A stretch of DNA of 54,423 bases from Prorocentrum cordatum (lineage: Eukaryota), in the NCBI GenBank assembly GCA_963575745.1, contig CAUYUJ010000241.1:62001-116423 (forward strand), in the 5' to 3' direction. The first letter of the stretch is position 1. Each line of letters starts with the position of its first letter. This document shows positions 182-38,629 of the stretch, in pieces. A program made the translations under genes and the position numbers. The notes beneath the pieces were generated by a model. It was given only the letters and a program-made list of their open reading frames with translations. It had not been told where the DNA came from and made no database searches.

Positions 182-203
182 TCCGTAGCCATTTTGGCTC
201 AAG
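182..203 (+). other. Genomic copy of the dinoflagellate spliced leader (DinoSL) at the 5' end of LINE-A
   Basis: TCCGTAGCCATTTTGGCTCAAG is an exact match to the DCCGTAGCCATTTTGGCTCAAG consensus and directly follows a (CCT)n tract. Confidence 0.97.
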
Positions 204-1905: not shown

Positions 1906-4900
1906 CGCCATTACTGATCTATTTGTGCTTCCAGTGGGGCAGGTCGGCGGAGAGATCTCAGCCAGCCTCACATTCATGACTTGGAATGCACACGCTCTTC
2001 TCCAATTTGGTGGGGCGAAGGCCTCGCCCAAGCTATCTTATCTAAGTAAACTGCAACCTGGGCGATCCATCTTGGCTCTCCAAGAAGTGCATGCAGATCG
2101 ATTCGAGCTGAACGACTTTGTGGCAAGGCTTTCTTCCACGGCCATTGTCCACGGCAGCTTTTGTGAAGATGACGACGGCGAGGTTGTCCGCGGCTCTGGG
2201 GGAGTTGCAGTCATTCTTCCTCCTTTCTCATCTTCTTCGGTCAGTAGCTGCGCGGTGCCTCTGATCAGAGGCAGGGTGCTTCGTGTTGATGTGGCGCTTG
2301 GGCAGACACAGCTGGTGATCTTCAACGTTCACAATCACGGCCTGACCAAGGGGGAGGTACAATCTGTCTGTGAGCAGATCGATTGTGCGCTGCGTCGTGC
2401 TGCTGATGACCCACTCTCGTACTTTGTGGTTGTCTTGGGGGATCTCAACTACAGCTACGATTCTTCTCTTATCTTTCACCGACCTACTGGGGTGCAGAGG
2501 CAGCTGACACATGATCATAAAGTACATGCTCCAATCTGGGCGGCGACACTCGGCAAGATGATGGAGATTAACTCGGAGGCTGCGACTCACTTCTGCAAGT
2601 TCACCAACTCCATCAACATCATCGACCGCTTCTTCTGTTCTGCCACAGGCTGGATGATGTGCCAGCTCATGACTGAGGTTAACACTGTGGACACGCCTGA
2701 GCACCTGTGCTCCATGGGCATATCGGATCATGCTGCTCTCTCGATTCGGCTGCGTCTGCGAGGTGCGCGTCCTGCTGCTGAGCGACCCATCCCCAAGCAC
2801 ATATTCACCTCTGTTGAATTCCAGCGCCGACTCCGAGGAATGGTTGCTGATTGTAATGAGGATCTGCTCCGATGGGGTCCACCGGTGGCCACAGAGCACT
2901 ACAAGTACATGATGAAGGAGGCCGCCAGGGAGGCCCGCGACATCCTCTTCTTCTCGGCCCCTGACCTGCCTGGGACGTTACAGCTGGTTGCTCGTGGGAT
3001 AGCACGAGCGGTATGGCGTCAAGACGCTGCCCTTGCCCTCAGGCTCATCGAGACCTCCCAGCACGCCGCCGACGCCCTGGTGGTCGACAGCCAGGTCGTC
3101 TCGCTGCGCCACGCCCCGTCCTTCGAGCAGTGGGCTGCTGGAGTGCATCGGTTGGTCCTCGAAAAAGAGCTTGCTGCTGCTGCTGCCGATCGTGCTCCCT
3201 CAGGCTCCTCATCTGCCTGGCGGCCTCATTCGGCCACGCTCTTGGGAGCTATGGAGAGGAAGGCCTCAATATGGGCCCCGTTTTCGAAGCGCCTGATTCT
3301 GTCCGCGGTCAACACCCCTGAGGGCCCCATATCAGAGGTTCGGGAACGCACTGCGGCCCTGGCGGCCTACTGGACCCCTGTCTTCTCCAAGAAAGAGCCC
3401 CACCCTGTCATGACCCAGATGTACCTCGACAGGTTCCTCACCAAGGCCTCTGGCATCGACCTGCACTGTCCTCTGACCCCAGTGTTTCGTAAGGTTCTCA
3501 GGCGTGCTCGTCACTCTGCTCCTGGTGTCGACGGGCTGCCCTACGCTGCCTGGTCAGCATGTGACTATGGCGCCCAGCACCTGGCCAGAATGTTCGGATG
3601 GCTATGCCAAGGTCAGTCGTTGTTCGCCTCTGCCAGCGTCACCCTCCAGGCGTTCCTCCCCAAAGGTGCTGATGACTCTGATCTGCCGTCTGGGGTTTGT
3701 TCTCGGTCTCCCGATAAGATACGGGTTCTGGGGCTGCGTAACACCGACGTGAAGATTCTGAGCTCGGTCATGAATAGGGTCCTCGAGCCTGTTGTCCAAG
3801 CCGTTGCACCCGCTTCCCAGAGAGGCTTCATTAGAGGACGGAATTTTTGCTATAACGTGCTTGAGCTGGATGTCCACGCTCGACTTGCATCTCAACATCC
3901 CCTTGCTGTGCGTCGTTCCCCTGTCCTTGTCGGGTTCGACTACGGGCAGGCCTTCCCGAGCTTGTCGCAGTCCTTCCTGCTGCAACTATTGGGCTCCCTT
4001 GGGCTCCCTACCGAGATTCTTGCTTTCGTGGGATGGATGTATTTGGCTGTGGAAGGGGTGGTCCAGGATGGGGGATGCTACACGACCATCTTCTGGATCC
4101 GCTCGGGCATCATCCAAGGATGTGGCCTCTCGGGGTCTTTGTACGCTCTCGCCTCCTCCCCCATGCTGGCCGACCTCGAGCGGAGTATCGAGCAGCGTCA
4201 GCTGGGGATATGCCGTGCCTGTGCCGATGATCTAGGTGCTGTTCTGTATGAGCTTGCCTCTCTGCGCATCCTGGTGCGGGTCCTAGGTGTCATGGAAAAG
4301 ATTGCAGGCCTCAAGATTAAGATCAGCAAGTGCACCCTGGTCCCCCTCGTCGGCTGCATGACAGAAGCCCTGAAAACCATGACCCAGACCCAGCTGGCCT
4401 CCATCGCGAGTGGCTGGTCAGGCTTCGCTGTTGAGGGGTGGTTGCTTTATCTTGGGATGATCTTGGGCCCTGATGCGACGGTCGACATGAACTGGAGAGG
4501 CCCGCTCATGAAGGCACGTTCTCGCTCTCGGATGTTGGGGCGTGGGGTTGCGTCAGTCTGTACGAATTGTATCCTGTACCGCACGCGGGTTTACCCTTGT
4601 TTGGCGTATGTAGCCCAATTCCTCCCTATGCCCGAATGGTTCCTGCCCATTGAGCGTGGTGCTATCGCCCAAGTTCTTCGAGCTCCCCTCGGCCTCTTTT
4701 CGAACGAATCGATCCTGGAGCTCCCGGCCTGGGGTGGTCCTCAGATCCCATCGTGGGCTGCCCATACTACTGCTGCTCACCTACGTGCTGCTTTTCACAC
4801 CTTCCAGGGCTTTGAGGAATACTTACGGCTACTGCGACAAACGGCTTCGCTCTGGCACAGAGAAGTGGTGGAAGGGAAGTTTGATGCTATCCCCTTGGCT

Positions 4901-7708
4901 GCTATGGATCGCTCCCGCGTTTATCCAGCTTTCTGGAAATCCCCTGCGTTCGTCGAACACCTTGAGCTGGTCCATGTGAGGTCTCAGGAGCCCCTACTCG
5001 TCGCCGCTCGCTCTGCCATGCGTGAGGAAGCTCAGGTTACGACACGAAGGCCCAAGCTGCAGCGTGCGGCTGCCCGCTCGCTGGGTCAGAACATGTGTGC
5101 GCACAAACCTCTTCAGGCTATGCTGATTCGCCACTTAACCCCGTTGTTCACAGCTTACCTCCCCTTCCTCAACCTGATCCACTGGCCCGCTATTCAGGAG
5201 CTTCTGGCACTGGTTCCGCAAAGTTGGGCGATGGCTGCCTTACGGACTTGGGGGCATGGTTGGTTGACATCTCATAGGATTATCCACCCGAGGGGTAAAC
5301 TACGTTGTCGTTTCGGATGCCCTGGCCCTGATCGGCTGCAACATTATCTACGCTGCCCTAAATTATACCTGGCAGTCAGCAAAGGTCTACAGCGTGCCCT
5401 GCCTCGTCCCCTGGCTCAGCGTCTTGGCCTTACACACCCCCACCCTGACCACTTCGAAGCTCTCTATGTCTATTACCAGGTCTTCAACTATGCTCGGCAA
5501 GGTGCGCTAGTGTCGACTCCTCGTCAGTTGCGTGGCGATGTCGAGGCCGCTGTCCGCACCTCTCGTCTGGCCAGACCCTCAGCCAAGTTAAAACGGTGGG
5601 AACCTCCTCCTGCTGTCCAGACGATCCGCCGAAGGCAGCCTCAGAGGAATGTGCTCACCTCCTCGTCCACCTCCAGTTTGAGTTCTGACGCTGCGGCCCC
5701 CATCCCTAACCTGGTCCCACCCACTCCGTGTATCGACGATGTGAGACATAGCTCTGATGAAGTCGGCCAACCTGCTCCCCACCCAGAGCCGCCTGTGTCC
5801 CTGCCTGCTGGCGCTTTGGCTCAGTGCGAGGCCCTGCCCCCACGGCAGGGCGTCAACGTGCGGACGCCCGTTTCCGCCGCTACCTTGCCGCGACCTGCGG
5901 CATCCATGTTCGCGTGGCCGCTGGCCGCCACAGTGGTGCTCTCCGCGGTCCACGCAACGCCGATAGCTGTCCCAACCACTTGTGAGGCGGATGTTACGCG
6001 GCTTGAACGTGAATATCGTGCGACCATCAGTCGTGTCGAACGCCTTCGTGCTGGTGGGCTCCCTGTTCGAGAGGACCATGCTCTTCCTGAACAGTTGCGA
6101 TGTTTGGGCGATGCCACCACGTCGAAGTCGACGCCGTCACCTGGTTCTCCCTTCCTGTGCCTGGCGGGCCACCCACCTGCTTCCTCTGCGGAGCATGCAC
6201 CACCTGTTGTCTTCGGCGAACGTATTGCATCAAGGGCTACACGCTGGGTCTTGCGCCTGGATGACTCCGAGAGCGGCCGTGCCGACTGGTTGATGTGGTG
6301 CATCCTGTATGTGCGTGCAAAATTTGTTGCGAGGGAATGGGTGGATTCGTCTGGTTGGAGTGGTACGCTTGACGAGCTCGCTCGTCATATCTGCATGGTT
6401 GCCTGGGACACCTCTACCGAAGGGCGCCTCAATATCGTAGATTACTATCGGTGGCTGAATGACCCGAGTAACTCCTTGACGCGACACGGGCTCTGGGAAG
6501 AGATGGTGGATCGACATTTCCAGGCCCTTCGTGAGATCCGCAGAGAGATGAGGCAATACTTGGGACCCGCTGCGCCACACCGTGTTCGGGACTTCCTCGT
6601 GGACAGCAATGGAGACGAGGCCCTGCCCATCGCTGCTGCCAACGGGTCGGTGCACTATTTTGCCCCACTAGTCTCTGCAGTGGATCCTGATGATGGAGAT
6701 GCCGCCAACGGAGATGGAGACGTCGACCCTGCCTCTTTCCTCCTCCAGGTTTCGGTTGCAGGGTGCTCCTCGAGCCCTGCGGCCACTGGCGTTAGAACGC
6801 GGAGGTCGACCGCCTCTGTTGGAAATAACGGCTCTGGAGTAAGTTGCGAGCTTGCGTCTCGAGTTCGGAGGTCGACCGCCTCTGTTTTAAATAAGGGCTC
6901 TGGAGTAAGTTGCGAGCTTGTGTCTCGAGTTCGGAGGTCGACCGCCTCTGTTCTAAATAAGGGCTCTGGAGTAAGTTGCGAGGTCTCGTCTCATGTACGG
7001 TGGCCGACCGCCTCTGATGGAAATGAGGGCTCAGCCTTCGAGAGTTGCGCCGTCTTCGAGAGTTGCGCCGACGTCAAGTGTTGCGCGATCATGGTGAATT
7101 GCCCCGTCTTCGAGAGATGCGCCGTCATCGAGAGTGTCTCCGTCAACGAGAGTTGCGCCGTCTTCGAGGGTTGCACGCCATCATCGAGAGTTGCGCAGTC
7201 TCGGAGAGTTGCGCCGTCGTCACGAGTTTCGCCGACTTGGTCACGGATCGCTTCCCTCTTCGCTACTCTCCCGTGCTCGTCTTCCCCGACCTGGCCGAGT
7301 TCGACGGCTGCTGGCTCATCGATTGTCCCCTGTCCGACGTGGATGGCGGGACCCTCCTCCTCGATTTCGCCTCTGACGAGAATTTCGTCGTCAATGTCAT
7401 GCAGTGCTACTCCAACTTCTCCTATTGGCTTGAGTTCTGGTACAGGAGTTGGGGGCACCCTTAGATTGCCCCACATGTGTGAGTGCCGTCGGAAAAGGCC
7501 CCAGTCGCCCATTTTCCTTATCCGTTCTCTGCGCCTTGCCTCGATCCCCTCCTTCGTCCGCGCTCCCTCCTGCTCTCAGCATCCTCTGAATGTGAATGAT
7601 ATAAATTTGACGGCTATCCGCCGCGCATCGTGTCCTGCAGCTACGGCGGCCTCAGCTACAACAGCTTCGACAGGAGGCGTGCCCATGCTGCCTCAGGCGC
7701 CGTGCTAG
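377..7708 (+). CDS. LINE-A ORF2 polyprotein: AP endonuclease, reverse transcriptase, CCHC-like knuckle, long C-terminal extension (start uncertain: ATG 377 or 1976)
   Basis: APE motifs TWNAH, LQEVH, VLGDLN, IDRFF, SDHAAL. RT motifs SAPGVDG, QRGFIRGR, FDYGQAFPSL, GIIQGCGLSG, CADD, GLKIKISK, YLGM. Zn motif CRFGC-x8-H-x3-C. The frame is open from 293 to 7708. Confidence 0.92.
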   Translation: MLYIVSMVVRMLIRRLLPLVAVIPLRSPAALPLGAVAAEVPVVPLALGLPPTATLVPPLSPLAVLAVLAALVVLAGTSLCLLVLLPRIGAPTPRLWEHLGVLRLCPWTNGTTPSVHKWLQNSRWLLPSRRRRRGPTRMPPRRALLLGSSTPGPRRRGRALPRGLRLLLVVLLIVAKRRSMPPSLGPSTMPTYPRGSCSCAMSSTISSPRPSPILFSSLTLPSLPRSPHFRSSSPRSTHPLISRSWHRYVRSLIPCSASFRSSMMPYAVVSTTLSGTSRPRLPNWLSCRSRSRSYAARMSWIDNSRRVPLPLLVSTARSIRRRSLWSHPSSSVWLASVKWSTPSWASSTSPRTTRTRSKHSRRSPPKSLPCASLGRSGWLPDVCKRPSLTSSRTEHGGSFSAQLKVLTQPVFTLVLTSRRNKFVVRCSFVRSALPSWSLTVRESGLSIGSGVFLSLTTPTSCVLSPGQAMNPLSSLGTTWGSAPSAWAAVTPRMPFGTSPPRRRPPSGVFNAITDLFVLPVGQVGGEISASLTFMTWNAHALLQFGGAKASPKLSYLSKLQPGRSILALQEVHADRFELNDFVARLSSTAIVHGSFCEDDDGEVVRGSGGVAVILPPFSSSSVSSCAVPLIRGRVLRVDVALGQTQLVIFNVHNHGLTKGEVQSVCEQIDCALRRAADDPLSYFVVVLGDLNYSYDSSLIFHRPTGVQRQLTHDHKVHAPIWAATLGKMMEINSEAATHFCKFTNSINIIDRFFCSATGWMMCQLMTEVNTVDTPEHLCSMGISDHAALSIRLRLRGARPAAERPIPKHIFTSVEFQRRLRGMVADCNEDLLRWGPPVATEHYKYMMKEAAREARDILFFSAPDLPGTLQLVARGIARAVWRQDAALALRLIETSQHAADALVVDSQVVSLRHAPSFEQWAAGVHRLVLEKELAAAAADRAPSGSSSAWRPHSATLLGAMERKASIWAPFSKRLILSAVNTPEGPISEVRERTAALAAYWTPVFSKKEPHPVMTQMYLDRFLTKASGIDLHCPLTPVFRKVLRRARHSAPGVDGLPYAAWSACDYGAQHLARMFGWLCQGQSLFASASVTLQAFLPKGADDSDLPSGVCSRSPDKIRVLGLRNTDVKILSSVMNRVLEPVVQAVAPASQRGFIRGRNFCYNVLELDVHARLASQHPLAVRRSPVLVGFDYGQAFPSLSQSFLLQLLGSLGLPTEILAFVGWMYLAVEGVVQDGGCYTTIFWIRSGIIQGCGLSGSLYALASSPMLADLERSIEQRQLGICRACADDLGAVLYELASLRILVRVLGVMEKIAGLKIKISKCTLVPLVGCMTEALKTMTQTQLASIASGWSGFAVEGWLLYLGMILGPDATVDMNWRGPLMKARSRSRMLGRGVASVCTNCILYRTRVYPCLAYVAQFLPMPEWFLPIERGAIAQVLRAPLGLFSNESILELPAWGGPQIPSWAAHTTAAHLRAAFHTFQGFEEYLRLLRQTASLWHREVVEGKFDAIPLAAMDRSRVYPAFWKSPAFVEHLELVHVRSQEPLLVAARSAMREEAQVTTRRPKLQRAAARSLGQNMCAHKPLQAMLIRHLTPLFTAYLPFLNLIHWPAIQELLALVPQSWAMAALRTWGHGWLTSHRIIHPRGKLRCRFGCPGPDRLQHYLRCPKLYLAVSKGLQRALPRPLAQRLGLTHPHPDHFEALYVYYQVFNYARQGALVSTPRQLRGDVEAAVRTSRLARPSAKLKRWEPPPAVQTIRRRQPQRNVLTSSSTSSLSSDAAAPIPNLVPPTPCIDDVRHSSDEVGQPAPHPEPPVSLPAGALAQCEALPPRQGVNVRTPVSAATLPRPAASMFAWPLAATVVLSAVHATPIAVPTTCEADVTRLEREYRATISRVERLRAGGLPVREDHALPEQLRCLGDATTSKSTPSPGSPFLCLAGHPPASSAEHAPPVVFGERIASRATRWVLRLDDSESGRADWLMWCILYVRAKFVAREWVDSSGWSGTLDELARHICMVAWDTSTEGRLNIVDYYRWLNDPSNSLTRHGLWEEMVDRHFQALREIRREMRQYLGPAAPHRVRDFLVDSNGDEALPIAAANGSVHYFAPLVSAVDPDDGDAANGDGDVDPASFLLQVSVAGCSSSPAATGVRTRRSTASVGNNGSGVSCELASRVRRSTASVLNKGSGVSCELVSRVRRSTASVLNKGSGVSCEVSSHVRWPTASDGNEGSAFESCAVFESCADVKCCAIMVNCPVFERCAVIESVSVNESCAVFEGCTPSSRVAQSRRVAPSSRVSPTWSRIASLFATLPCSSSPTWPSSTAAGSSIVPCPTWMAGPSSSISPLTRISSSMSCSATPTSPIGLSSGTGVGGTLRLPHMCECRRKRPQSPIFLIRSLRLASIPSFVRAPSCSQHPLNVNDINLTAIRRASCPAATAASATTASTGGVPMLPQAPC
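6800..7031 (+). repeat. 66-bp in-frame tandem repeat (about 3.5 copies) in the LINE-A ORF2 tail
   Basis: CGGAGGTCGACCGCCTCTGTT...GGCTCTGGAGTAAGTTGCGAG starts at 6800, 6866, 6932 and (degenerate) 6998. Confidence 0.9.
7039..7235 (+). repeat. Degenerate 18-bp tandem repeat (CGAGAGTTGCGCCGTCTT)
   Basis: Repeated GAGAGTTGCGCCGTC units, translating as FESCAV-like repeats. Confidence 0.8.
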
Positions 7709-7919
7709 GCGCAGGGAGCTGACCTCTGGGTACGCTGGTCTCCTCCTCCTCCTCCTCCTCCTCCTCCTCCTCCTCCTCCTCCTCCTCCCGTTCCTCCCCC
7801 TCCTCCTCCTCCTCCTCCTCCTCCTCCTTCTCCTCGCCCCTCCTCCTCCTCTTCCTCCTCCTCCTCCTCCTCCTCCTCCTCGCCCCTCCTTCTCCTCCTC
7901 CTCCTCCCCCTCCTCCTCC

Positions 7920-7941
7920 TCCGAAGCCATTTTGGCTCAAG
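7920..7941 (+). other. DinoSL copy (1 mismatch)
   Basis: TCCGAAGCCATTTTGGCTCAAG, a T>A change at position 5, preceded by (CCT)n. Confidence 0.93.
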
Positions 7942-27578: not shown

Positions 27579-28024
27579 TATTACGAATTGTAACATGCAG
27601 CGCTGACGGCCGACCACGCGATCACAAGCACCGACCACCAACAACCAAGCACCGCCACACCGACTACTGGCGCCTTGCGCCAGCATCAACACCAAACCTA
27701 GCACAGACGACCAATTCAGACTCCACACAACGACGCGGCACGAACACACCACGACATCGACTACAAGCATTCCTCCCCCTCCTGCCCTCCCCTTTCGTTT
27801 CACATAACTTTTTCTGTCTCGCATGCATGTATTTCCATACACAATAGTATTTCAGAGGCCAAGGCCTCGTTCACCTGGTCTCCAGTAGGCCTGGACTGCT
27901 GTCCGCACCGGAGGTCATTCGTTCGTTCCTCCTTCCTCCTCCTCCTCCTCCTCCTCCTCCCCCTTGTCCTCCCCCTCCTCCTCCCCTTCCTCCTCCCCCT
28001 CCTCCTCCTGCTCCTCCTCCTCCC

Positions 28025-28061
28025 TCCGTAGCCATTTTGGCTCAAGCCATTTTGGCTCAAG
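28025..28061 (+). other. Full DinoSL (28025-28046) plus 15-nt relict SL (28047-28061)
   Basis: TCCGTAGCCATTTTGGCTCAAG followed by CCATTTTGGCTCAAG. Confidence 0.97.
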
Positions 28062-28065
28062 ACCC

Positions 28066-31000
28066 ATGCTTTGGCGGGCTGAGCCCGCTCTGGCAAAAAC
28101 GGATACCGCTAGTCCGCGGCAGCAACCAACCTGTACGGAGGTCCCTCGGTCGAGGGGTTCGCGAGCCTCCAACATCCCAATCCTTGCTCTCGCGCCATGG
28201 CTCCGGCTGGCCCTGGTGAGTGGGAGCGCCGCCCGTGGGTTCAGTCATCCCGGCCCCGTCGCTGGGGGGGCACCATACCTGAGGGCGGGGGTTCGGCAGC
28301 CAAGTGGGAAAAATGGGACAGCCAGCGAGCCAAGCACGAGGAGGAATGGAAGACGGTGGCAGGTCCCAAAGGTGAAATTCTATGCCACCACTGCGGATGC
28401 CGTAAGAACTCAAAAGGATCGATGTGCTGCAAGCATTGTGGCCAAAAGCTCGGTACTCGTCCCCAACCACTTGATGACTCTGGGGCCCCCATGGCGTCGG
28501 ACGAGTCGGGGAAGGGAGCGAGCAAGGGAAAGAAAGGGTACAAAGGCGGCAAGGGAGATCTGTTCGGTGGCAAGGGCCCAGGCAACCTCTCCACGGCACT
28601 CCCTCCTGGACCTGTTCCCGAGATTCCCCAGGCCAAGGCCCTCGAATTACAGCGTCTGGCTCGTGAGGCTGGGGACGCTGTGGGGGCCGCGCGCTATGGA
28701 GCCCTGGCGCAGAGGGCGGCGCCGCCCCCGAAGCAGTCGGGGAGGCAGAGGCTCATTGCCGCAGAGCAGAAGCAGGAGAAGCTCGAGAAACGCCTCAACA
28801 GTGAGTTCGAGAAGCTGGAGCGCTGGCGTCGGGCGACAGATGAGCTGGCAGTCACGGTTGGGGCCCTGGCCGAGGAGCTGCAGGCTGCCGACGACGAGGT
28901 GGCAGCCGCCCTGGTGGAGCTCCAGAGCCAGCACAGAGGGCCACCAGCGACGGAGTCCAGCGGCCTGCCGAGCATCAGCCTGCGCAAGCTCATCGACGGT
29001 GAGATGGAGCTGGCCAGCCGTATTTCTTGTGACGATTTCATTGATGTTGAGGCTGTCAAGGGCAGCCACGAGGTGTCTGAAGAGGACCTACGAGAGCTCG
29101 AGGATCGCAAGAACAACGTGGCTAAGCAGATGCAAGAGGTGCTGGGATCGGTATTTCGCCAAGCTCTGGAGAAGGCCAATTCCGCCCAGGACCAGCACAA
29201 GGAGCACCTCAAACGACTCCAAGCGAAGCGACGACGCACTGCTGACGGTTGCCCTGGGGAACAAGCAGCCGCCACAGGTGGGATCGAGTCTGGACCAGGG
29301 GCCTCGCCAAGCCCAGAGACCGCGACAGCGAGCTCACCTGCCGAGGCGCCGGCTGATGCAGTTGGCAAGCCTGCCCCACAGTTGGACATTCGCTCTCGTG
29401 TCTCTGCTGACGTTGGTGTGCAGGCAGCAAAACGGTCGGGGCTTTAGCCACAGCGTGAGCTCGACACAAGTGGGGGCGACGTGGTCGAGTTCGGCTACTC
29501 CCTGTTCCTGGTCATCTCTCGGTGCCGTTCCTGAGAAGGCGGCCGCTAGCGTCCTCTCTCCTGAGAGGAGCAGCCTGAGTGAACCCGCCTGCCTCACGGC
29601 AGGTGCGAGTCCCAGGCGGGCAGCGGCGCTGGAGGAGCGTGCACTGACGGCGAAGTCGATTGCCACGAGCGCATCGTCGAGGCCGTCTTCTTCGGTTGAG
29701 CTGTCATCGTCGGTGTCGGGTACTCCCTGCGCTGCGGTGTCGCCGTCGGCTCCAGTGTCGGCGACTCCCTGGGCTGCGGTGTCGCCGTCGACTTCGTGGG
29801 TGGCGTCTACCCGTTTTGTCGGATTGGAGACCAGGTGCGCCTCGAGCCTGGTCTCCTCAGAGTTAAATTGCGAGGAAGAGTGGCCACGGGCTTCGGCGAC
29901 ATGTCAGAGCGCCGAGAACGTGACAGCCAGTCAGAACGTAGCCGTCAAGCCCAACCAGAGCTTGGCGGCCCTCTCGTCCAAACCTTTTGTTGCACGCAGT
30001 GAGGAAATTTCAGTGTCAGAACGCGACAGCCAGGCGCTCCTCGAACCTGGCTGTCTCAGAGTAGATTGCGAGAGCCCGTCGTTGGAGTCTGGCGTTAGAT
30101 CGCTAAATCCTGGGGGCAACCGATGCTCGGAGGAAGTGCCCAGCCAGGTTCAGTCGCCACTTGCTGAGTCTCGAGCCATGGGAGTCAGTGTTGAGCAACC
30201 TCAGGTGGAGTCTCAAGCAGCGCTGCAGCCGAAGCAGGTCATCTCATTGTTGGAAGGGCTCCCTCCTGAGGATCGCGGTGCCCTAGGTACGTTCAAAGTT
30301 GGCACTCTGAATGCGAATACTTGGCCAAGGGCTCGGAGCACCATGCCATGGATTGAGAAACAATGTCAGATGCCGCATGTGTTATGCATTCAGGAGACCG
30401 TGCTGGACCAGTCGGGGGAAGCAGGGGCCCATCAATGGACTCGCACTTGCTCTCGGAAGCTGGCGCTGGGAACTGCCAAGCGCACAGGAGAATCGGCCAG
30501 ATCTCTTTCAGCAGGAGTGGGTTTGTCAGCGGCCATTGGCATTGGGGTGGCCAAGCTCCAGGTTCCTGAGAGGTGGCAGCACCGTGTTGTGATGAGGCTC
30601 ATGACGGTTGGCGCTCACTCGTGGATCATCATCGGCTCAGTCTACGGCGTCGACTCGATCGGCCCCAAGGGCGAGAACCTGGAGCTGCTGGAGTTCCTCA
30701 GTGCCTTCCTGGGGGCGCAGCGTTTCCCTTTCCTGCTAGGAGGTGACTGGAACCTAGAACCTGAGGAGATCATGGAGCTAGGATGGCTGGACCTGGCAAC
30801 CGCCACCATCTTCGCACCTGGCCTCCCAACCTGCAATGGCAAGGAGTATGACTACTTCATTGGCTCCCAGGCTCTGGACGCCTTCCCCATGTCGGTGGAG
30901 GCCAGGGTGGACACGCCGATCTCGCCACACTGCTACGTCGAGATCAAGCTGGAGGGCCTCAGGGACGAGCCCTTTGTCTGGGTCGAGGCGCCCCCACGAG

Positions 31001-34000
31001 CCTTTCCTCTGGCCGACCAGGAGGCCAAGAGGAAAGCCAGGGAGAAGGCAAAGAGTGCCAAGGTGACCGATCTCACCTCGACCACGGAACCGCCTATGGT
31101 ACCTGTGCTTGACGAGTGGCAACTGGACGCCCCCGTGAACTCAGTCGAGGATGCGGCAGCGATGTGGTTCAAGGCGGCTGAGAAGTACCTGGTGCAGTTG
31201 TTCGAGATTCCGTTCTCGGACAGGAGGCTCTACGTTGGCAGGGAGAAGGGCGTGGTACTCAAGAAGAAGAGGCTGGTGGACTGTGCGAAGGCTATCCTAG
31301 AGCGCCACGACGAGTCGGACACCAGAGCTTGGCTGAGTGCCCTCAGGCTATGGGATGCCCTATGTGTGGCATCGTCAGCTCCGTCTGGTTCGAAAGCAGG
31401 CAGGCCAGAGCACTCCGCGAGGTGCGAGAGACAGCTGCTGGCCCTGAAGCTCCCTGAGGCCATCTCGGATTCCCCCTCCCTGCAGGCGAAGGATGTCCAG
31501 AAGTGGGTCGCCTTGGCCAAGAGAGGAGGTCAGTTGTCTGCCTGGTTTCGAACTGTTCTAGCGGAGGAGGTGGATGTGCGCAGACGCAAGGACTCACAGG
31601 CCAGGAGTAAGGCCTGGAGAGAGTTCGGCGACCTCGCAGCTGATGGCTCTGGCAGGCTAGCGCACGCGATTTCCAGGCCCAAGCTGTTGGAGGAGGCGCC
31701 CACGCTGGCCAAAGGCAAGCCCCATGGTCTGGTGGGAGCTGCTGCGATCACGGCGGTGCTGGAGGAATGGGAAGAGCTGTGGACCTCTGACGACAGGGCC
31801 CAGGAGGCAGCGCCGTCTGACTGGAGTTACCCGTGGAAGCTCGACCAGATCTCGGAGGACCAGATCGTCCAGGTCTGCCGCTCCTTTGGCTTTTCCACTG
31901 GTCTAGGCTGGGACAACTTTCACATGAGGTTGGTAAGCTTCCTGGATGGAGTGTTTGTTCGGAGGCTCCAAGAGATTATTTCAAGTTGGGAGCGCAATCC
32001 GCACTGTGAACGCATGTGGGTCACGATCAATGTATTTCTGCCTAAACCAGGAGGAGGTACACGCCCGATCGGGCTCCTTTGCTTCTGGGCGCGCATTTGG
32101 AGCAGATGCAGGAGGCAGTATGTCAAAGGTTGGGAGGCGTCGGTTGATGCGAAGTTTTTCTGGGGAAAGGATGCCACGACCAGTTGTGACAAAGCGGCGT
32201 ACGTACACAATATGCTTGCCTGCTACGCCAGAAGGAAGAGGCTGTCGGCCATAACTGTGTTCTATGACATCCGCAAGTTCTACGAGAATGTCAGTCATCA
32301 GCAGCTAAGAGAAGCAGCAGAGCACTACAGTTTCGACGGCGCCTTGCTGAAGGCGCTCTGCTGTCTGTATCGAGCGCCACGCCGTGCGCGCTGGACAGGA
32401 GGCACGAGCAGAGTCAGTTATCCGAATGGAACTATCGTGGCTGGCTGCAGTGCGGCAACGGGAGTGGCGAAACTGATGACCTTGTGCCTCCTCAAGCGCC
32501 TGGCTGAGGAGACGCCTCCGTGTCGTGCGTTGAATGTGGTGGACGATTTGACGACGCATACCATCGGAGGCCCAAGGACGGTTGTTGAGAACACGGTCAA
32601 GAGTTTCGAGATTGTCACCTCGGAGCTGGGCTCGAGGAAGTTGCCAATTAATTGGGACAAGACTAGATTCATGATGTCCGATCACTCCCAGCTGCCTGCG
32701 TTGGTACAGGATCCCAGGTGGAGGCTATCGGACGACAAGCTGGTCATCGCCCACCGCGACCTCGGCGGCGACTCGCTGGACGGCAGGGCGAGGCGAGTCG
32801 GCACGCAGGCGTCGAGAATTGAGGCCGCCCGCAGCACTGCAGTTGCCCTACGACAGCTGGGGCAGAGTGAAAAGCATAGTAGAGTTTATCGTGTGGGCGC
32901 GCTGGCTAAAGCTTCTTGGGGATCCCACATCTTGGGGATCCCGCCGACCACCCTCCATAAGCTTAGGGTCCAAGCTGCGAGATCCTGGGGCCCTCTTCTT
33001 CCTGGCACTTCCCTGGGCTTCAGGTTTCTTTCGGCCGCTCGCCTCTGGCTCAGGGACCCGCTTTTGGTGACGGTGACGTCGGCTGTAAAGGAATTCGTCA
33101 GCGTTTGGTGGGCCCGCTCGATTTCTAAACCAGTGTTGGAAGCTTGTGTCCAGGACGCCCTGGCGGTCCAGGGGAGTAGGGCCCCCTGGGGCCAAGTCCG
33201 CCAGCCTGTTGCTGCGCTTTTCCTGCAGCTTGCTCGGATCCGCTGGAGTTTCGATGTGTCTCGATTAGCCCTGGTTGACGACCTCAACCGTGTGTGGTCA
33301 ATTGATCGGTTTTCGCCCAAGTTTTTCACCCTTCTCCTGCGAGGCTCGGTCGTTCGGGCCATTGAGCGGGAGGAGCAGTTGAAACAATTTGATTTCGGGA
33401 TGTGGAGCGGCCCAGTGTTCTGGCAGCCCATTCATCAGCTTCTAGGGCGGAAATGTTCGGAGTCGTGGACGAAGTCGCACAAGGCAGCTCTTTCAGCTCT
33501 GTGTGCGAATGTGTACTGGTGCCAGCACAGAGTGTGCGAGCATAGTCCAGAGGCCCCTGACCAATGCCAGCTGTGCAGAGATGGTAGAGGCACGTTGTAC
33601 CATCGCAGGTTTCAGTGCGTTGCCTTCGCTCCCTGGCGGCGCGAGAACCTGGATCCCGTGGTTGCTAAGGCGGCTCGTGCGGTTGGCCATCTCCCCACTC
33701 CTGCTGGGGAACTTTTTAGCAGATGTCTTTTCCCCAACCCTGCGGCCTGGGTGGAGCGACCCCCCCGCGACCCGCAGGACCCGTGCACCAGGCACTTTCA
33801 GTGGCCTCAGGACGGCCCCTTGTTTATTCCTGAGGGGGCTCATGTGTTCACGGACGGGTCGGGCTTTGAAGGGGAGCTCACAGGACTCGGGACCGCGGGT
33901 TGGGCTGTTGTGGTGCTGGACAGGCAGGGTAGGACCCTCGCCGCCCTTTTTGGTGTCGTGCCGATCGGGGAAGCGCCTGGGCAACAGGCACGCGACGGCG

Positions 34001-35127
34001 AGGATTTCGCTGTGCTGATGCTCTCCCGCCGTTCGGTCCTCTCCTCAGGTGTCTCGCTTCATGTGGACTGTGCGGCCACGGTCGGTTGCCTTCGAAACCT
34101 CGCGGGGGCAGCTGGTGCGTCGTCGGCCCGAGCCCACTGGTGGGCTGAGATTGGGGACCGTTTGGAGGGCTTGGCAGTGCATCAGATCCCGTCTCACTCG
34201 TCGATGGTTGATGTTAGGGAAGGCCGTATCACTGAAATGCAGCGTTTCGGGAACTCGGAGGCGGACAGACTCGCCAAGGAAGGAGCTGAGCCATTCCGAA
34301 TTTCGATTGAGGACCGCCAATTTGTGACTGGATATGCAGAGCTTGTCCGACGTGTCGGGCTGTACAGTGCCAGGCAGCAGGCTGAGTGTAGGGATTTGGC
34401 CCTGAACGATCATCAAGGGTTGGAATGGCTCGGCTACGTCCTCCTGGATGCGGTCCCTGGCTTCCCCCTTCCTGGTTCGGACCCTGGGGGTGGTGAGCCA
34501 AGTGCGCCTAGCGGTGTGCCTCAGGTTGCGCCTGGTGCGGGGGAAGCCCCTGGCGAGGCCCCTGGCGCGGTATCCGGTGAGCCGCCTCCCGAGAACCCCC
34601 CGACCCCAGGAGCATGGCTCCAGCTGGGGCACTCCCTTGAGCAGGGGGTGGTATATGAGTCGGATGGCTGCACGTATCACGATACGATGCTGTGTTGCAC
34701 GGCTTGTGGTGCAATGGCACATTCCAGCACGAAACGGGGGAATCTTCGGTTGAGGTGTCGTCCGGTCGCGTCTGGGGGACGGGGGTTTTACCTCGACCGA
34801 TTTCGTGCTGGAAGATATCCTGCCCATAGGAATCCTAAAGGGCTCACTATGGCGTACACGGGTGCCCCCTCTCTTGAGGTTCGCTCGGAGTGGAGGCCCT
34901 TCTTTGAGGCCTGGTCCCAGGGCCGCGACCGCCCTCCGAGAATAGCTCGGGGTGCCCAGCCCTCGCGCCGCGAGGGTCCCGCTGCCGACCGTGCGCGAGG
35001 CCTCGCCATGCTCGGCCTGACGCGGGCGGAGGTCGTGGAGCTGGGGGCCGAGGTCGAGGCCAGGCGCTGGAGAGGCGTTCTTCCCGAGGAGGAGGAGGAT
35101 CTCTTCGGCTGCCTAGGCCCCTCCTAA
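28066..35127 (+). CDS. LINE-B ORF2 polyprotein: APE, RT, CCHC, RNase H, C-terminal Cys/His domain (start uncertain)
   Basis: APE TLNANTW, IQET, SVYG, GGDWN, YDYF, SPH. RT LPKPGGGTRPIGL, YDIRKFYE, IVAGCS, VVDD. CQLC-x8-H-x4-C. RNase H FTDGS, DGE, VDC, PSH, GNSEADRLAK. Tail GHSL...CTACG...C. Confidence 0.92.
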   Translation: MLWRAEPALAKTDTASPRQQPTCTEVPRSRGSRASNIPILALAPWLRLALVSGSAARGFSHPGPVAGGAPYLRAGVRQPSGKNGTASEPSTRRNGRRWQVPKVKFYATTADAVRTQKDRCAASIVAKSSVLVPNHLMTLGPPWRRTSRGRERARERKGTKAAREICSVARAQATSPRHSLLDLFPRFPRPRPSNYSVWLVRLGTLWGPRAMEPWRRGRRRPRSSRGGRGSLPQSRSRRSSRNASTVSSRSWSAGVGRQMSWQSRLGPWPRSCRLPTTRWQPPWWSSRASTEGHQRRSPAACRASACASSSTVRWSWPAVFLVTISLMLRLSRAATRCLKRTYESSRIARTTWLSRCKRCWDRYFAKLWRRPIPPRTSTRSTSNDSKRSDDALLTVALGNKQPPQVGSSLDQGPRQAQRPRQRAHLPRRRLMQLASLPHSWTFALVSLLTLVCRQQNGRGFSHSVSSTQVGATWSSSATPCSWSSLGAVPEKAAASVLSPERSSLSEPACLTAGASPRRAAALEERALTAKSIATSASSRPSSSVELSSSVSGTPCAAVSPSAPVSATPWAAVSPSTSWVASTRFVGLETRCASSLVSSELNCEEEWPRASATCQSAENVTASQNVAVKPNQSLAALSSKPFVARSEEISVSERDSQALLEPGCLRVDCESPSLESGVRSLNPGGNRCSEEVPSQVQSPLAESRAMGVSVEQPQVESQAALQPKQVISLLEGLPPEDRGALGTFKVGTLNANTWPRARSTMPWIEKQCQMPHVLCIQETVLDQSGEAGAHQWTRTCSRKLALGTAKRTGESARSLSAGVGLSAAIGIGVAKLQVPERWQHRVVMRLMTVGAHSWIIIGSVYGVDSIGPKGENLELLEFLSAFLGAQRFPFLLGGDWNLEPEEIMELGWLDLATATIFAPGLPTCNGKEYDYFIGSQALDAFPMSVEARVDTPISPHCYVEIKLEGLRDEPFVWVEAPPRAFPLADQEAKRKAREKAKSAKVTDLTSTTEPPMVPVLDEWQLDAPVNSVEDAAAMWFKAAEKYLVQLFEIPFSDRRLYVGREKGVVLKKKRLVDCAKAILERHDESDTRAWLSALRLWDALCVASSAPSGSKAGRPEHSARCERQLLALKLPEAISDSPSLQAKDVQKWVALAKRGGQLSAWFRTVLAEEVDVRRRKDSQARSKAWREFGDLAADGSGRLAHAISRPKLLEEAPTLAKGKPHGLVGAAAITAVLEEWEELWTSDDRAQEAAPSDWSYPWKLDQISEDQIVQVCRSFGFSTGLGWDNFHMRLVSFLDGVFVRRLQEIISSWERNPHCERMWVTINVFLPKPGGGTRPIGLLCFWARIWSRCRRQYVKGWEASVDAKFFWGKDATTSCDKAAYVHNMLACYARRKRLSAITVFYDIRKFYENVSHQQLREAAEHYSFDGALLKALCCLYRAPRRARWTGGTSRVSYPNGTIVAGCSAATGVAKLMTLCLLKRLAEETPPCRALNVVDDLTTHTIGGPRTVVENTVKSFEIVTSELGSRKLPINWDKTRFMMSDHSQLPALVQDPRWRLSDDKLVIAHRDLGGDSLDGRARRVGTQASRIEAARSTAVALRQLGQSEKHSRVYRVGALAKASWGSHILGIPPTTLHKLRVQAARSWGPLLPGTSLGFRFLSAARLWLRDPLLVTVTSAVKEFVSVWWARSISKPVLEACVQDALAVQGSRAPWGQVRQPVAALFLQLARIRWSFDVSRLALVDDLNRVWSIDRFSPKFFTLLLRGSVVRAIEREEQLKQFDFGMWSGPVFWQPIHQLLGRKCSESWTKSHKAALSALCANVYWCQHRVCEHSPEAPDQCQLCRDGRGTLYHRRFQCVAFAPWRRENLDPVVAKAARAVGHLPTPAGELFSRCLFPNPAAWVERPPRDPQDPCTRHFQWPQDGPLFIPEGAHVFTDGSGFEGELTGLGTAGWAVVVLDRQGRTLAALFGVVPIGEAPGQQARDGEDFAVLMLSRRSVLSSGVSLHVDCAATVGCLRNLAGAAGASSARAHWWAEIGDRLEGLAVHQIPSHSSMVDVREGRITEMQRFGNSEADRLAKEGAEPFRISIEDRQFVTGYAELVRRVGLYSARQQAECRDLALNDHQGLEWLGYVLLDAVPGFPLPGSDPGGGEPSAPSGVPQVAPGAGEAPGEAPGAVSGEPPPENPPTPGAWLQLGHSLEQGVVYESDGCTYHDTMLCCTACGAMAHSSTKRGNLRLRCRPVASGGRGFYLDRFRAGRYPAHRNPKGLTMAYTGAPSLEVRSEWRPFFEAWSQGRDRPPRIARGAQPSRREGPAADRARGLAMLGLTRAEVVELGAEVEARRWRGVLPEEEEDLFGCLGPS
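28197..29447 (+). CDS. LINE-B ORF1 (C4 zinc finger and coiled coil), 416 aa
   Basis: ATG in GCGCCATGG context. CHHCG-x9-CCKHCG zinc finger, GK-rich segment, long coiled-coil-like region. Confidence 0.85.
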   Translation: MAPAGPGEWERRPWVQSSRPRRWGGTIPEGGGSAAKWEKWDSQRAKHEEEWKTVAGPKGEILCHHCGCRKNSKGSMCCKHCGQKLGTRPQPLDDSGAPMASDESGKGASKGKKGYKGGKGDLFGGKGPGNLSTALPPGPVPEIPQAKALELQRLAREAGDAVGAARYGALAQRAAPPPKQSGRQRLIAAEQKQEKLEKRLNSEFEKLERWRRATDELAVTVGALAEELQAADDEVAAALVELQSQHRGPPATESSGLPSISLRKLIDGEMELASRISCDDFIDVEAVKGSHEVSEEDLRELEDRKNNVAKQMQEVLGSVFRQALEKANSAQDQHKEHLKRLQAKRRRTADGCPGEQAAATGGIESGPGASPSPETATASSPAEAPADAVGKPAPQLDIRSRVSADVGVQAAKRSGL

Positions 35128-35699
35128 CTTGTTTGTTTTTTGTTGCATGCGAATTGGGTCACTCCCTTCGTGGTCGCGGGCGTCCTCCTCCTCCCGGTCT
35201 TTCTCCTCCTCCTCCCTCCCTTCCTCCTCCCCCTCCTCCTCCGCCTCCTCCTCCTGGTCTTTCTCCTCCGTCCTCCTCCTCGTTGTCCTCCTCATCCTTG
35301 TCCTCATCATCTCCCTGAAGATTGGCTGCGCTGCTAGGGTCGATCCTCATCATCTCTCCTCCTTCTTCTTCTCCTCCTCCTCCTCCACAACTACACAATA
35401 TGAATACTGCTCTCCTCTCCTCCTCCTTCTCCTCCTTCTCCTTCTCCTCTCCTCCTCCTCCTCCTCCTCTCGTCCTCCTCTCCTCTCCTCTCCTCTTTCT
35501 CCTCTTTCTCCTCCTCCTCCTCCTCTTCCTCCTTCTCCTCTTTCTCCTCCTCCTCCTCCTCCTCCTCCTCCACAATTACACAATCTGAATACTACTCTCC
35601 TCTCTCCCCGGATGACGTCCTGGAAGATCTTCGGCTCCCCTCCGCGTGCTTAACAAAACATAAAAAAGGACTCCCGAGAGTTGGGTTTTAGCTTGGGCT

Positions 35700-38090: not shown

Positions 38091-38194
38091 GCGTCAGCAC
38101 TGTCATGGTCATCGGCGGCAGTGGCGATTTCTTCCCCATAGCCGACACCGTCATCTGCATGGAGCGCTACCAGGCTAGCGACGTCACCGTCCAG
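38091..38194 (+). CDS. Host gene exon: ABC-class ATPase, (G)VSTVMVIGGSGDFFPIADTVICMERYQASDVTVQ
   Basis: Family motif GVST.LV.GGSGDY...AD.VI.M..Y...DVT. AG acceptor at 38089-38090 completes the split Gly codon from 22947. Probable AG|GA donor. Confidence 0.88.
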
Positions 38195-38629
38195 GAGGGC
38201 CCTCGCACGCGGCGGCCCTCCACCTCCAGCGTCGTGGGCGTCGCTGTCGCCTCCGTCCCCTCCGTCGCTGTCGCCGCCGTGGTATGCCGTCGGAGGCGGA
38301 GGACGAGGAAGAGTGTGAGGGGTGGCAGGAGGAGTAGGAGGAGGAGGAGGAGGAGGAGGAGGAGGAGGAGGAGGAGGAGGAGGAGGATGGGGCGATGAGG
38401 AGTGGAGGAGGAGGAGAAGGAGGGCGAGTACGCAGGGAGTGAGGTGTACAGAATGGGGGGAGGGGAACGGGAGCAGGAGGCAGGTTAGAATGGGAGGTGT
38501 GGGAGGAAAGCAGGAGGTTGTGGGGGCGGGGGCAGCGAGTTGGTGGATGATGGCCACGAGAAGGACGAGGATACGGGGCAGGAAAGCAGGGGCTGTTGGT
38601 GAAGGAGGGAACAAAAAATGTTGGTGTTT

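What the first reader, a model, noticed from the sequence alone, without database searches (positions are those of the whole stretch)
28066..30290. The same fully overlapping ORF1/ORF2 (+1 frame) layout in the distinct LINE-B family
Seen: the first ATG after the SL (28066, 4 nt behind the relict SL, weaker context) is in the ORF2 frame. That frame runs without a stop through ORF1 (28197-29447, GCGCCATGG) and a Ser-rich spacer to the APE at about 30290. No other ATG lies between 28066 and 28197. Inference: two distinct LINE lineages share one translation strategy, with two competing SL-proximal AUGs setting the ORF1:ORF2 ratio. An added relict SL would lengthen the leader ahead of AUG 28066 and could tune ORF2 output.
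Basis: partly seen in the sequence, partly recalled or inferred. Interest (0 to 1): 0.74.

Follow-up and report, generated by a model that had tools for sequence, protein, structure and literature searches.

The report
LINE ORF2 frame overprints all of ORF1
In two unrelated jumping-gene (LINE) families of a dinoflagellate, the reading frame of the enzyme gene is kept free of stop codons across the whole upstream coat-protein gene, which points to an unusual way of making the enzyme.

Summary
In LINE-B, a full and a relict DinoSL (28025-28061) are followed 4 nt later by ATG 28066. This ATG opens a 2353-codon frame that runs in the +1 frame through ORF1 (28197-29447) and a 244-codon spacer into the endonuclease and reverse transcriptase. 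LINE-A (ORF1 346-1905, ORF2 frame 377-7708) has the same layout.

The open overlap is not chance. There are 0 stops against 6-8 expected in each element (0/5000 shuffles for B, 0-3/5000 for A; P about 1e-4 each under a codon-junction null). The third frame has 18 and 26 stops. ORF1 is the frame under protein-level selection. The overlapping ORF2-frame peptide changes freely and only its openness is kept.

Start contexts fit dual initiation: both ORF1 AUGs match the dinoflagellate consensus RCCAUGG, and AUG 28066 does not.

Both ORF1s end in CTT-TAR-C, the RF2/Ty1-type +1 frameshift heptamer, exactly where ORF2 needs a +1 shift. This gives a serious rival or second route, an ORF1-ORF2 fusion.

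No DNA of relatives and no RNA data could be obtained, so the route into the ORF2 frame is inferred. I rate it a new variant of LINE expression, of moderately high interest.

The parts
27927..28024 (+). (CCT)n-rich tract directly upstream of the SL. It is like the 3' tails of LINE-A and LINE-B and is probably the insertion target or the tail of an earlier copy.
   Evidence: blastn of the LINE-A tail 7639-7791 onto 27924-28061; very high contig depth over 27861-28121.
28025..28046 (+). Full 22-nt dinoflagellate spliced leader (TCCGTAGCCATTTTGGCTCAAG) encoded in DNA at the 5' end of LINE-B.
   Evidence: 4 matches in the window; 0 of 100 shuffles reach 4.
28047..28061 (+). Relict SL, truncated at its internal AG. 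It marks an earlier round of trans-splicing followed by retrotransposition.
28066..28068 (+). First AUG of the SL-capped RNA. It is in the ORF2 frame, with context CCC AUG C that does not match the consensus.
   Evidence: consensus from PMC6027434. The same start is seen in P0005 and P0154.
28197..29447 (+). ORF1, 416 aa: a RanBP2-like Cys4 knuckle, coiled-coil-like helices, and context GCC AUG GCU. This is the frame under protein-level selection.
   Evidence: P0002, 38% identity, E 5e-45; codon log-likelihood +0.20.
28066..35127 (+). ORF2-frame ORF, 2353 codons. It comprises the N-extension (overlap with ORF1, +1 frame), the spacer, APE, RT and a C-terminal region.
29442..29448 (+). CTT TAG C: last ORF1 codon, stop, and following base. 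Candidate +1 frameshift heptamer (CUU_UAG_C).
   Evidence: motif properties from PMC5009743.
29448..30177 (+). Ser-rich spacer, open only in the ORF2 frame (0 stops against 8 and 8 in the other frames), so it is translated upstream of the nearest 'conventional' ATG at 30178.
   Evidence: 4/2000 shuffles open; in-frame length variants of 135, 138 and 42 nt, tables 5 and 5c.
30265..31035 (+). Apurinic-type endonuclease (APE) domain.
   Evidence: Exo_endo_phos E 0.0033, 17.6 bits, below the 24.5-bit cutoff; 953 relatives, nearly all listed matching aa 680-1200.
32041..32676 (+). Reverse transcriptase domain.
   Evidence: RVT_1, E 1.3e-11, aa 1326-1537.
35184..35300 (+). (CCT)n-rich 3' tail of LINE-B.
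182..203 (+). Full DinoSL heading LINE-A.
346..1905 (+). LINE-A ORF1, 519 aa, context GCC AUG GGC. It ends CTT TAA C (1900-1906).
   Evidence: (P0162, 91% identity).
377..7708 (+). LINE-A ORF2-frame ORF, 2443 codons, the +1 frame of ORF1. ATGs at 377, 395 and 407. APE at 1976-2665, RT at 3710-4342.
7740..7921 (+). (CCT)n-rich 3' tail of LINE-A, followed at 7920-7941 by a variant SL that heads another unit.

Best explanation
LINE-B, and likewise LINE-A, is an SL-capped, (CCT)n-tailed, APE-type non-LTR retrotransposon. Its ORF2 is not a separate downstream cistron. The ORF2 reading frame is kept open from an SL-proximal AUG through all of ORF1 (+1 frame) and through the spacer. I propose that two kinds of ribosome decode one mRNA. 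Most start at the consensus-context ORF1 AUG (28197; 346 in A) and make ORF1p. A minority start at the ORF2-frame AUG and translate the overlap as a sequence-unconstrained, strongly basic N-terminal extension that continues into APE-RT. In B that AUG is 28066: it is the first AUG, has a poor context, and lies 26-41 nt from the cap. In A the candidates are 377, 395 and 407, directly behind the ORF1 AUG. What is shown: the anatomy, the stop avoidance, the start contexts, and selection on ORF1 and on ORF2. What is inferred: that the AUGs are used, and that their competition sets the ratio. The CUU_UAR_C heptamer at each ORF1 stop may add a second entry into the same frame.
For: (1) There are zero +1-frame stops across 416 and 519 ORF1 codons against 6-8 expected. 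This occurred in 0/5000 and 0/5000 shuffles for B and 3/5000 and 0/5000 for A, and P = 1.3e-4 and 1.6e-4 under the junction null. All 27+5 (B) and 26+5 (A) xTG/xTA codons avoid a following A or A/G. Only decoding from a 5'-proximal start needs this. (2) The first two AUGs behind the SL are one per frame, with none between them. (3) Start contexts: both ORF1 AUGs fit RCCAUGGCN, AUG 28066 does not, and A's 377 fits at -3 only. (4) A has three ORF2-frame ATGs within 11 codons just after its ORF1 AUG, and the next one is 127 codons later. (5) AUG 28066 and the open frame recur in related copies: P0005 (147 aa, 82% identity) and P0154 (164 aa). (6) The two majority variants in the leader (28089, 28090) are both synonymous in the ORF2 frame, and the leader indel pair at 28123/28126 keeps the frame. 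(7) The spacer is open only in the ORF2 frame, and its length variants are in frame. This places the start of ORF2 translation upstream of 29513.
Against: No expression data were available, and no RNA run holds the stretch. The N-extension peptide is not conserved: 50 of 63 inferred single-base changes fall on ORF1 third positions, with 45 synonymous and 18 not in ORF1. Its codon usage is neutral (log-likelihood -0.03). Its content is odd for an enzyme's N-terminus: net charge +71 in B and a very hydrophobic Leu/Val-rich start in A. In A the first AUG has the consensus context, so little leakage is expected. The fragments P0005, P0154 and P0007 were reported because they are open (ascertainment bias), and the first two are near-duplicates. 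The CTT-TAR-C ending of both ORF1s is not explained by this model. One contig in run X4 lacks ATG 28066 (table 7).
Confidence: 0.45

Rival explanations
1. Programmed +1 ribosomal frameshifting at the ORF1 stop is the main or only route. With CUU in the P site and a poorly terminated UAG-C or UAA-C in the A site, peptidyl-tRNA-Leu slips to UUU. Translation then continues in the ORF2 frame and gives an ORF1p-ORF2p fusion, in gag-pol fashion. The upstream ORF2-frame AUGs would be incidental.
For: Both unrelated ORF1s end CTT TAG C (29442) or CTT TAA C (1900), and ORF2 is +1 in both. CTT makes up 1.5% of codons. The chance of both endings plus both following Cs is about 2e-5; the chance of any shared last codon plus shared next base is 5.5e-3. 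The 38%-identical ORF1 homologue P0002 also ends in Leu. PMC5009743 (passages) reports that CUU_U is by far the most efficient RF2 shift site, also when tested with UAG; that the C after the stop is conserved and important; that Ty1 CUU_AGG_C shifts about 40%; and that stop codons are strong A-site stimulators. Named Prorocentrum cordatum models P0158 and P0030 join a RanBP2-finger and coiled-coil part to APE-RT in one protein, so a fusion architecture exists among relatives. The spacer is translated from at or before the ORF1 stop. B has a hairpin 10 nt downstream (29449-29500, z -2.4, 5/200 shuffles).
Against: This model does not explain why about 400-500 upstream codons are stop-free in the +1 frame (joint P about 1e-8). 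It also does not explain why B keeps an out-of-frame first AUG that would rob ORF1. The heptamer was noticed post hoc. The hairpin window was chosen after looking: the 89-nt windows give z +0.2 (B) and -1.1 (A). The P0158 and P0030 gene models may hide frame switches behind predicted introns; P0162 demonstrably switches frames. The host tRNA-Leu set is unknown.
Confidence: 0.3
2. This is a conventional bicistronic LINE. ORF2 starts at an internal AUG close to the endonuclease (1976 in A, 30178 or 29356 in B) by reinitiation or another unconventional internal initiation, as proposed for human L1. The upstream openness would have no role.
For: A has an ATG exactly at the usual APE N-terminus (MTWNAHAL, 1976), 71 nt after the ORF1 stop. 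B has GCC ATG G at 30178, 37 codons before the APE. The review PMC3894237 (passages) says most non-LTR elements have an intergenic spacer and that the way ORF2 is initiated is unknown.
Against: B's 244-codon spacer upstream of 30178 is open only in the ORF2 frame (0 stops against 8 and 8; 4/2000 shuffles). Its length variants are multiples of three. Neither the stop-free overlap nor the heptamer is needed under this model.
Confidence: 0.1
3. A minority of RNA or DNA molecules carry a one-base change, from polymerase slippage or from indel-bearing copies, that puts the ORF1 start in frame with ORF2. The open frame would serve those molecules.
For: B has a G7 run at 28264, 23 codons into ORF1. 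The P. cordatum model P0162 reads first in the ORF2 frame and then in the ORF1 frame.
Against: A has no run of 5 or more bases before position 843, so the two families share no such site. The indels shown are compensated pairs or multiples of three. G7 is short for slippage by a eukaryotic polymerase (from general knowledge, not tested here).
Confidence: 0.03
4. Chance or composition: the open frame is a by-product of GC-rich sequence.
For: The window has 60% GC and holds many overlapping open frames of 200-400 codons.
Against: Shuffles conditioned on each ORF1's own codons, and a junction null taken from the same elements, reject this in both families. The +2 frame has 18 and 26 stops.
Confidence: 0.03

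Closest known systems
Human/mammalian L1 and other two-ORF APE-type LINEs (SART1, I factor, etc.)
   Same: All have an ORF1 nucleic-acid-binding or coiled-coil protein upstream of an ORF2 with APE and RT. All have a repeat tail and many copies under purifying selection.
   Different: In L1 the ORFs do not overlap and ORF2 starts internally by an unconventional mechanism. In SART1 a UAAUG stop-start links the ORFs (PMC3894237, passages; the L1 detail also comes from the abstract listing of PMC4091050). Here the ORF2 frame spans all of ORF1. The RNA is capped by trans-splicing, and the SL is copied into the DNA.
Leaky-scanning overlapping genes of RNA viruses and pararetroviruses (e.g. +1-frame ORFs reviewed in PMC2832772)
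   Same: Two long frames are read from one capped RNA from adjacent AUGs. The overlapping frame shows stop avoidance but a weak protein signature.
   Different: Those are viral accessory ORFs, usually short (search listing and abstract only). Here the overlapping frame is the N-terminus of a 2350-2440-codon replicase of a cellular retrotransposon. In LINE-A the first AUG is the strong one.
RF2 (prfB) CUU_UGA_C and yeast Ty1/ABP140 CUU_AGG_C +1 frameshift sites
   Same: The heptamer is nearly identical (CUU_UAG_C, CUU_UAA_C). A stop sits in the A site, a C follows it, and the downstream frame is +1.
   Different: No frameshift has been measured here. The RF2 stimulator is a Shine-Dalgarno pairing that eukaryotes lack. 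Ty1 uses a rare sense codon, not a stop. Neither has an open +1 frame upstream.
DinoSL-tagged retrogenes (relict SL model; PMC6050394 and PMC5585692 abstracts, PMC8045281 passages)
   Same: A full SL followed by a relict truncated at its AG lies at the 5' end of a retroposed unit.
   Different: Those papers describe host retrogenes. Here the SL heads the autonomous elements themselves, so each new copy carries an acceptor for re-capping. In the passages and abstracts I saw, nothing describes LINE ORF layouts.
2A-containing non-LTR retrotransposons (PMC3708506, PMC3894237)
   Same: Among the proteins held, 13 of 163, mostly relatives, carry a GEAx[NKH]PGP motif upstream of the APE. So recoding at the ORF2 N-terminus occurs in this wider group.
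   Different: LINE-A and LINE-B have no NPGP. B has only NPGG at aa 681.

Membership tests
APE-type non-LTR retrotransposon (LINE) | Reverse transcriptase domain | tested here: met
   RVT_1 E 1.3e-11 (B) and 6.2e-13 (A).
APE-type non-LTR retrotransposon (LINE) | Apurinic-type endonuclease N-terminal to the RT | tested here: met
   A: Exo_endo_phos 24.8 bits, above the 24.5 cutoff. B: only 17.6 bits, but 953 library proteins match and nearly all listed stretches lie in aa 680-1200. The alignment keeps the QET, GDWN and PH motifs.
APE-type non-LTR retrotransposon (LINE) | Multi-copy family with a repeat 3' tail; target-site duplication | tested here: inconclusive
   Hundreds of contigs at 85-100% likeness in 4 runs and (CCT)n tails. 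A duplication cannot be read because the insertions lie inside (CCT)n.
DinoSL-headed retroposed unit with relict SL | Full 22-nt SL at the 5' end, followed by a copy truncated at the internal AG | tested here: met
   28025-28046 and 28047-61.
Overlapping ORFs expressed by leaky scanning | First AUG in a weak context, no AUG between the two starts, both frames open | tested here: inconclusive
   B meets all three. In A the first AUG has the consensus context, so the weak-first-AUG feature is not met.
Overlapping ORFs expressed by leaky scanning | Both products made from one mRNA | not testable with these tools
   No RNA holder listed; no proteome or ribosome profiling is reachable.
Programmed +1 frameshift site (RF2/Ty1/antizyme type) | Shift-prone P-site codon (CUU_U), slow A-site codon or stop, C after the stop, +1 frame open downstream | tested here: met
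   CTT TAG C at 29442 and CTT TAA C at 1900; ORF2 is +1. Criteria from PMC5009743.
Programmed +1 frameshift site (RF2/Ty1/antizyme type) | Stimulatory element; measured frameshift product | tested here: inconclusive
   Folding downstream is not distinctive in 89-nt windows (z +0.2 and -1.1). A post hoc 52-nt window in B gives z -2.4. The product is not testable here.
2A-type ribosome-skipping LINE | D/G-x-E-x-NPGP motif in the ORF | tested here: not met
   No NPGP in either frame of A or B.

The most novel reading that the evidence does not exclude
Dinoflagellate SL-capped LINEs decode their replicase from a frame that overprints the entire ORF1, and they enter that frame by two routes on one mRNA. 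One route is initiation at an SL-proximal AUG. The other is an RF2-like +1 frameshift at CUU_UAR_C. The SL itself is carried in the DNA and lets every new copy be re-capped without a promoter. If true, this would be a LINE expression strategy not described before, and the first programmed +1 frameshift signal proposed for dinoflagellate nuclear genes.
Probability: 0.25. Interest if true: 0.8.

Novelty: new variant of a known kind. Interest (0 to 1): 0.62.

Why it matters
How LINEs make a little ORF2p next to a lot of ORF1p is an open question even for human L1. Here two unrelated families show a clear sequence-level signature of selection: a 400-500-codon stop-free overlap plus a shared shift-type heptamer. 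That signature narrows the possible mechanisms to two concrete, testable ones. It also shows how a retrotransposon can exploit spliced-leader trans-splicing to obtain a cap and a defined 5' end. This bears on the huge, retroposition-shaped genomes of dinoflagellates, and on gene prediction in them: public gene models already mix the two frames.

Tried and rejected
Whole genome: none is held.

DNA of relatives:
- Two metagenome-contig scans found none: one used the ORF1-B + P0002 alignment and one the APE alignment.
- The viral contigs and genome-contig scans with the APE alignment found none.
- A 13-sequence APE alignment was too divergent to search with.
- An exact DinoSL scan of viral contigs gave 119 stretches. 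None of the 118 loci has a tblastn hit to either LINE at 1e-5.
- L048 (SL followed by a 1040-aa ORF) has no Pfam family.

Proteins:
- ORF2-frame residues 1-470 against long proteins gave no hit.
- ORF1-B gave one relative.
- ORF1-A gave two partial models without C-termini, so the terminal-Leu test could not be extended.
- P0163's N-terminus does not match A's ORF2-frame peptide.

RNA: no RNA holder is listed. All four runs laid are contigs, so they give no transcript ends.

Other checks:
- Earlier findings of this scan: nothing.
- Pfam on 34 other open frames of the window gave one hit, an ABC_ATPase fragment. ORF1-A and ORF1-B have no Pfam family.
- Transcriptional slippage: no homopolymer is shared by A and B.
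- Downstream RNA structure is not distinctive.
- LINE-C (14687-18648) also has CTTTAGC at the end of a 204-codon frame (15296). The copy is degenerate and its APE is now in the same frame, so I do not count it.
- LINE-D on the minus strand (APE 50363-50623) is too decayed to use.
- The five best-supported variants inside the overlap are too few to compare the frames.

Literature: the listings, abstracts and passages I read contain no description of a LINE with ORF1 fully inside the ORF2 frame, nor of +1 frameshifting in a LINE. Supplements were not read.
Full report
WHAT IS THERE. The window is dinoflagellate DNA. The spliced-leader core CCATTTTGGCTCAAG occurs four times on the + strand (189, 7927, 28032, 28047), and 0 of 100 shuffles reach four matches. 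GC is 60%. At the finding, a (CCT)n-rich tract is followed by a full 22-nt SL (28025-28046), a relict SL truncated at its AG (28047-28061), ACCC, and ATG 28066. The frame of that ATG runs to 35127, 2353 codons. ORF1 (28197-29447, 416 aa, context GCGCCATGG) lies in it at frame offset +1. No other ATG lies between 28066 and 28197.

Downstream come a Ser-rich spacer, an endonuclease domain, a reverse transcriptase and a (CCT)n tail. The endonuclease gives Exo_endo_phos at 17.6 bits, below the cutoff. It is backed by 953 library relatives, nearly all of whose listed stretches lie in aa 680-1200. The reverse transcriptase gives RVT_1 at E 1.3e-11. The tail is seen.

LINE-A at the start of the window has the same plan. 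It has an SL at 182-203 and ORF1 at 346-1905. Its ORF2-frame ATG 377 is open to 7708, again in the +1 frame, and it ends in a (CCT)n tail. The two families are distinct. Their ORF1s are 16% identical in an alignment. Their ORF2s give no tblastn cross-hit at 1e-5. Their APE domains are 18% identical.

IS IT MORE THAN CHANCE? Yes. The +1 frame has no stop in 416 (B) and 519 (A) ORF1 codons, while the +2 frame has 18 and 26.
- Shuffling codon order predicts 8.1 stops for B and 6.4 for A.
- Shuffling synonymous codons among positions predicts 6.3 and 5.7.
- Zero stops occurred in 0/5000 and 0/5000 shuffles for B, and in 3/5000 and 0/5000 for A.
- With junction frequencies from the elements' own ORF2 cores (an A follows xTG in 19% of cases; an A or G follows xTA in 48%), P(0) is 1.3e-4 and 1.6e-4.
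- The ORF2 cores themselves carry 47 and 56 stops in their +1 frames, so there is no general avoidance.

The window has many long overlapping open frames. Length alone is therefore not the argument; the conditional tests are.

WHICH FRAME IS THE PROTEIN? ORF1 is.
- It has a relative at 38% identity (P0002, E 5e-45) that shares a Cys4 knuckle and helical segments.
- Its codon usage is coding-like (+0.20 bits per codon). The ORF2 frame in the overlap scores -0.03 and the third frame -0.33.
- Three database fragments translated in the ORF2 frame from related copies can be compared with the window: P0005, P0154 and P0007, at 78-82% identity. Their differences in the overlap map mostly to ORF2-frame second positions, which are ORF1 third positions: 50 of 63 changes explainable by a single base. 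In ORF1, 45 are synonymous and 18 are not. P0005 and P0154 are near-duplicates, and all three were reported because they are open.

So the N-extension peptide evolves freely and only its openness is kept. Its net charge is +71 in B and +64 in A. In A it starts with a very hydrophobic Leu/Val-rich stretch.

THE FAMILY IS UNDER SELECTION AND THE SPACER IS TRANSLATED. Contigs of four public runs cover the element at 85-100% likeness. Of the 40 best-supported variants (of 1236), 35 lie outside the overlap. Of these, 24 are synonymous in the ORF2 frame and 22 fall at third positions. The 12 indel rows shown (of 34) comprise five compensated pairs, one 3-nt insertion, and one single-base deletion beyond the ORF2 stop.

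The 244-codon spacer between the ORF1 stop and the next in-frame ATG (30178) has 0 stops in the ORF2 frame and 8 in each other frame. Only 4 of 2000 dinucleotide shuffles are open. Its length variants with known content are 135, 138 and 42 nt. ORF2 translation therefore enters upstream of the spacer. This argues against a conventional internal start in B.

ORF1-B ends ...GGG CTT TAG C and ORF1-A ends ...TGT CTT TAA C. CTT is 1.5% of codons in these elements. The chance of both endings with both following Cs is about 2e-5. The chance of any shared last codon and next base is 5.5e-3. P0002 also ends in Leu.

CUU_U followed by a stop and a C is the RF2 +1 shift site. According to passages of PMC5009743:
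- CUU_U was by far the most efficient of 32 variants when tested with UAG.
- The C after the stop is conserved and important.
- Ty1's CUU_AGG_C shifts about 40%.
- Stops are strong A-site stimulators in yeast.

ORF2 is +1 in both families, as such a site requires. A frameshift here would give an ORF1p-ORF2p fusion. Named Prorocentrum cordatum models (P0158, P0030) show that architecture as one protein: RanBP2-type finger, coiled coil, APE, RT. Gene models in this group can hide frame switches, however. P0162 starts in A's ORF2 frame (74% identity over 58 aa) and continues in the ORF1 frame.

WEIGHING THE MECHANISMS. Only decoding from a 5'-proximal start explains the stop-free overlap. The following also fit that start.
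- The first two AUGs are one per frame.
- Both ORF1 AUGs match the dinoflagellate consensus RCCAUGGCN (PMC6027434, passage). AUG 28066 (CCC AUG C) does not. A's 377 matches at -3 only.
- A has three ORF2-frame ATGs in 11 codons right after its ORF1 AUG.
- B keeps an out-of-frame first AUG, which would otherwise only cost ORF1.
- The two majority leader variants are synonymous in the ORF2 frame.

Several points count against it. The extension is junk-like. A's first AUG is the strong one. Nothing shows that these AUGs are used.

The frameshift model explains the heptamer and yields a sensible protein, but it does not explain the open overlap. Both signals are statistically real, so both routes may operate.

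I put dual initiation first (0.45), frameshift as main route second (0.30), internal initiation at 0.10, and slippage or chance at about 0.03 each. The idea that a relict SL tunes ORF2 output is untested. I can only say that contigs consistent with single-SL copies occur in all four runs (table 7).

COMPARISON WITH KNOWN SYSTEMS. The elements are ordinary LINEs in domain content. They are unusual in three respects.
- Complete overlap of ORF1 by the ORF2 frame. The review PMC3894237 (passages) describes spacers or a UAAUG junction. My six literature searches found no case of full overlap or of +1 frameshifting in a LINE, in the listings, abstracts and passages I read.
- An SL copied into the DNA at the head of the autonomous element itself. 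This is known for retrogenes (abstracts and passages).
- Insertion into (CCT)n.

Thirteen of the 163 proteins held, mostly relatives, carry a 2A-like GEAxNPGP motif before the APE. A and B do not.

LIMITS. No genome, no DNA of relatives and no RNA or protein data were reachable. The heptamer and the ATG cluster were noticed after looking.

Noticed in passing
Loci L001-L118 (IMG/VR contigs): The exact 21-nt DinoSL occurs in 119 stretches of viral contigs. Nearly all listed loci have 15-26% GC and most belong to giant-virus bins (GVMAG). Several contigs carry many copies. Only L046, L048 and L066 have dinoflagellate-like GC.
   Followed up: partly
window 105-181, 7740-7921, 27927-28024, 35184-35300: Both LINEs end in (CCT)n, and every SL in the window is preceded by (CCT)n. 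This suggests insertion into this microsatellite or into the tails of earlier copies. Contig depth over the (CCT)n-SL junction is more than 10 times that of the element body.
   Followed up: partly
window 7920-12154: A variant SL (CCGAAG instead of CCGTAG) sits directly in LINE-A's tail. It heads a third, very GC-rich unit (first ATG 8011) whose open frames have no Pfam family.
   Followed up: partly
window 14687-18648: A degenerate third LINE is related to LINE-A (25-34% identity over APE-RT). A 204-codon frame ends CTT TAG C at 15296 and is followed by a T-rich tract and an AG, like a splice acceptor.
   Followed up: partly
window 50363-50623 (- strand): A fourth, decayed APE fragment sits among low-complexity repeats.
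   Followed up: partly
Proteins P0013, P0016, P0018, P0027, P0028, P0052, P0056, P0092, P0093, P0118, P0146, P0156, P0157: A conserved 2A-like motif [RL][IV]GEAx[NKH]PGP lies before the APE in relatives of LINE-B's ORF2, about 200 aa upstream where checked (P0013, P0018, P0028, P0056, P0093). Some carry 300-370 junk-like residues upstream of it.
   Followed up: partly
Proteins P0005, P0007, P0154, P0159: A EukProt protein set labelled as the green alga Pyramimonas sp. CCMP1952 holds peptides 78-82% identical to this dinoflagellate LINE, and one peptide that clusters with a Prorocentrum cordatum protein. The set may be contaminated or mislabelled.
   Followed up: no
Proteins P0162, P0158, P0030: Public Prorocentrum cordatum gene models of these LINEs mix the two frames (P0162) or join an ORF1-like part to ORF2 (P0158, P0030). 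Annotation of these elements is unreliable where both frames are open.
   Followed up: partly
window 37580-38395: This is the only non-LINE Pfam hit in the window: an ABC_ATPase P-loop fragment (E 4.6e-9).
   Followed up: no
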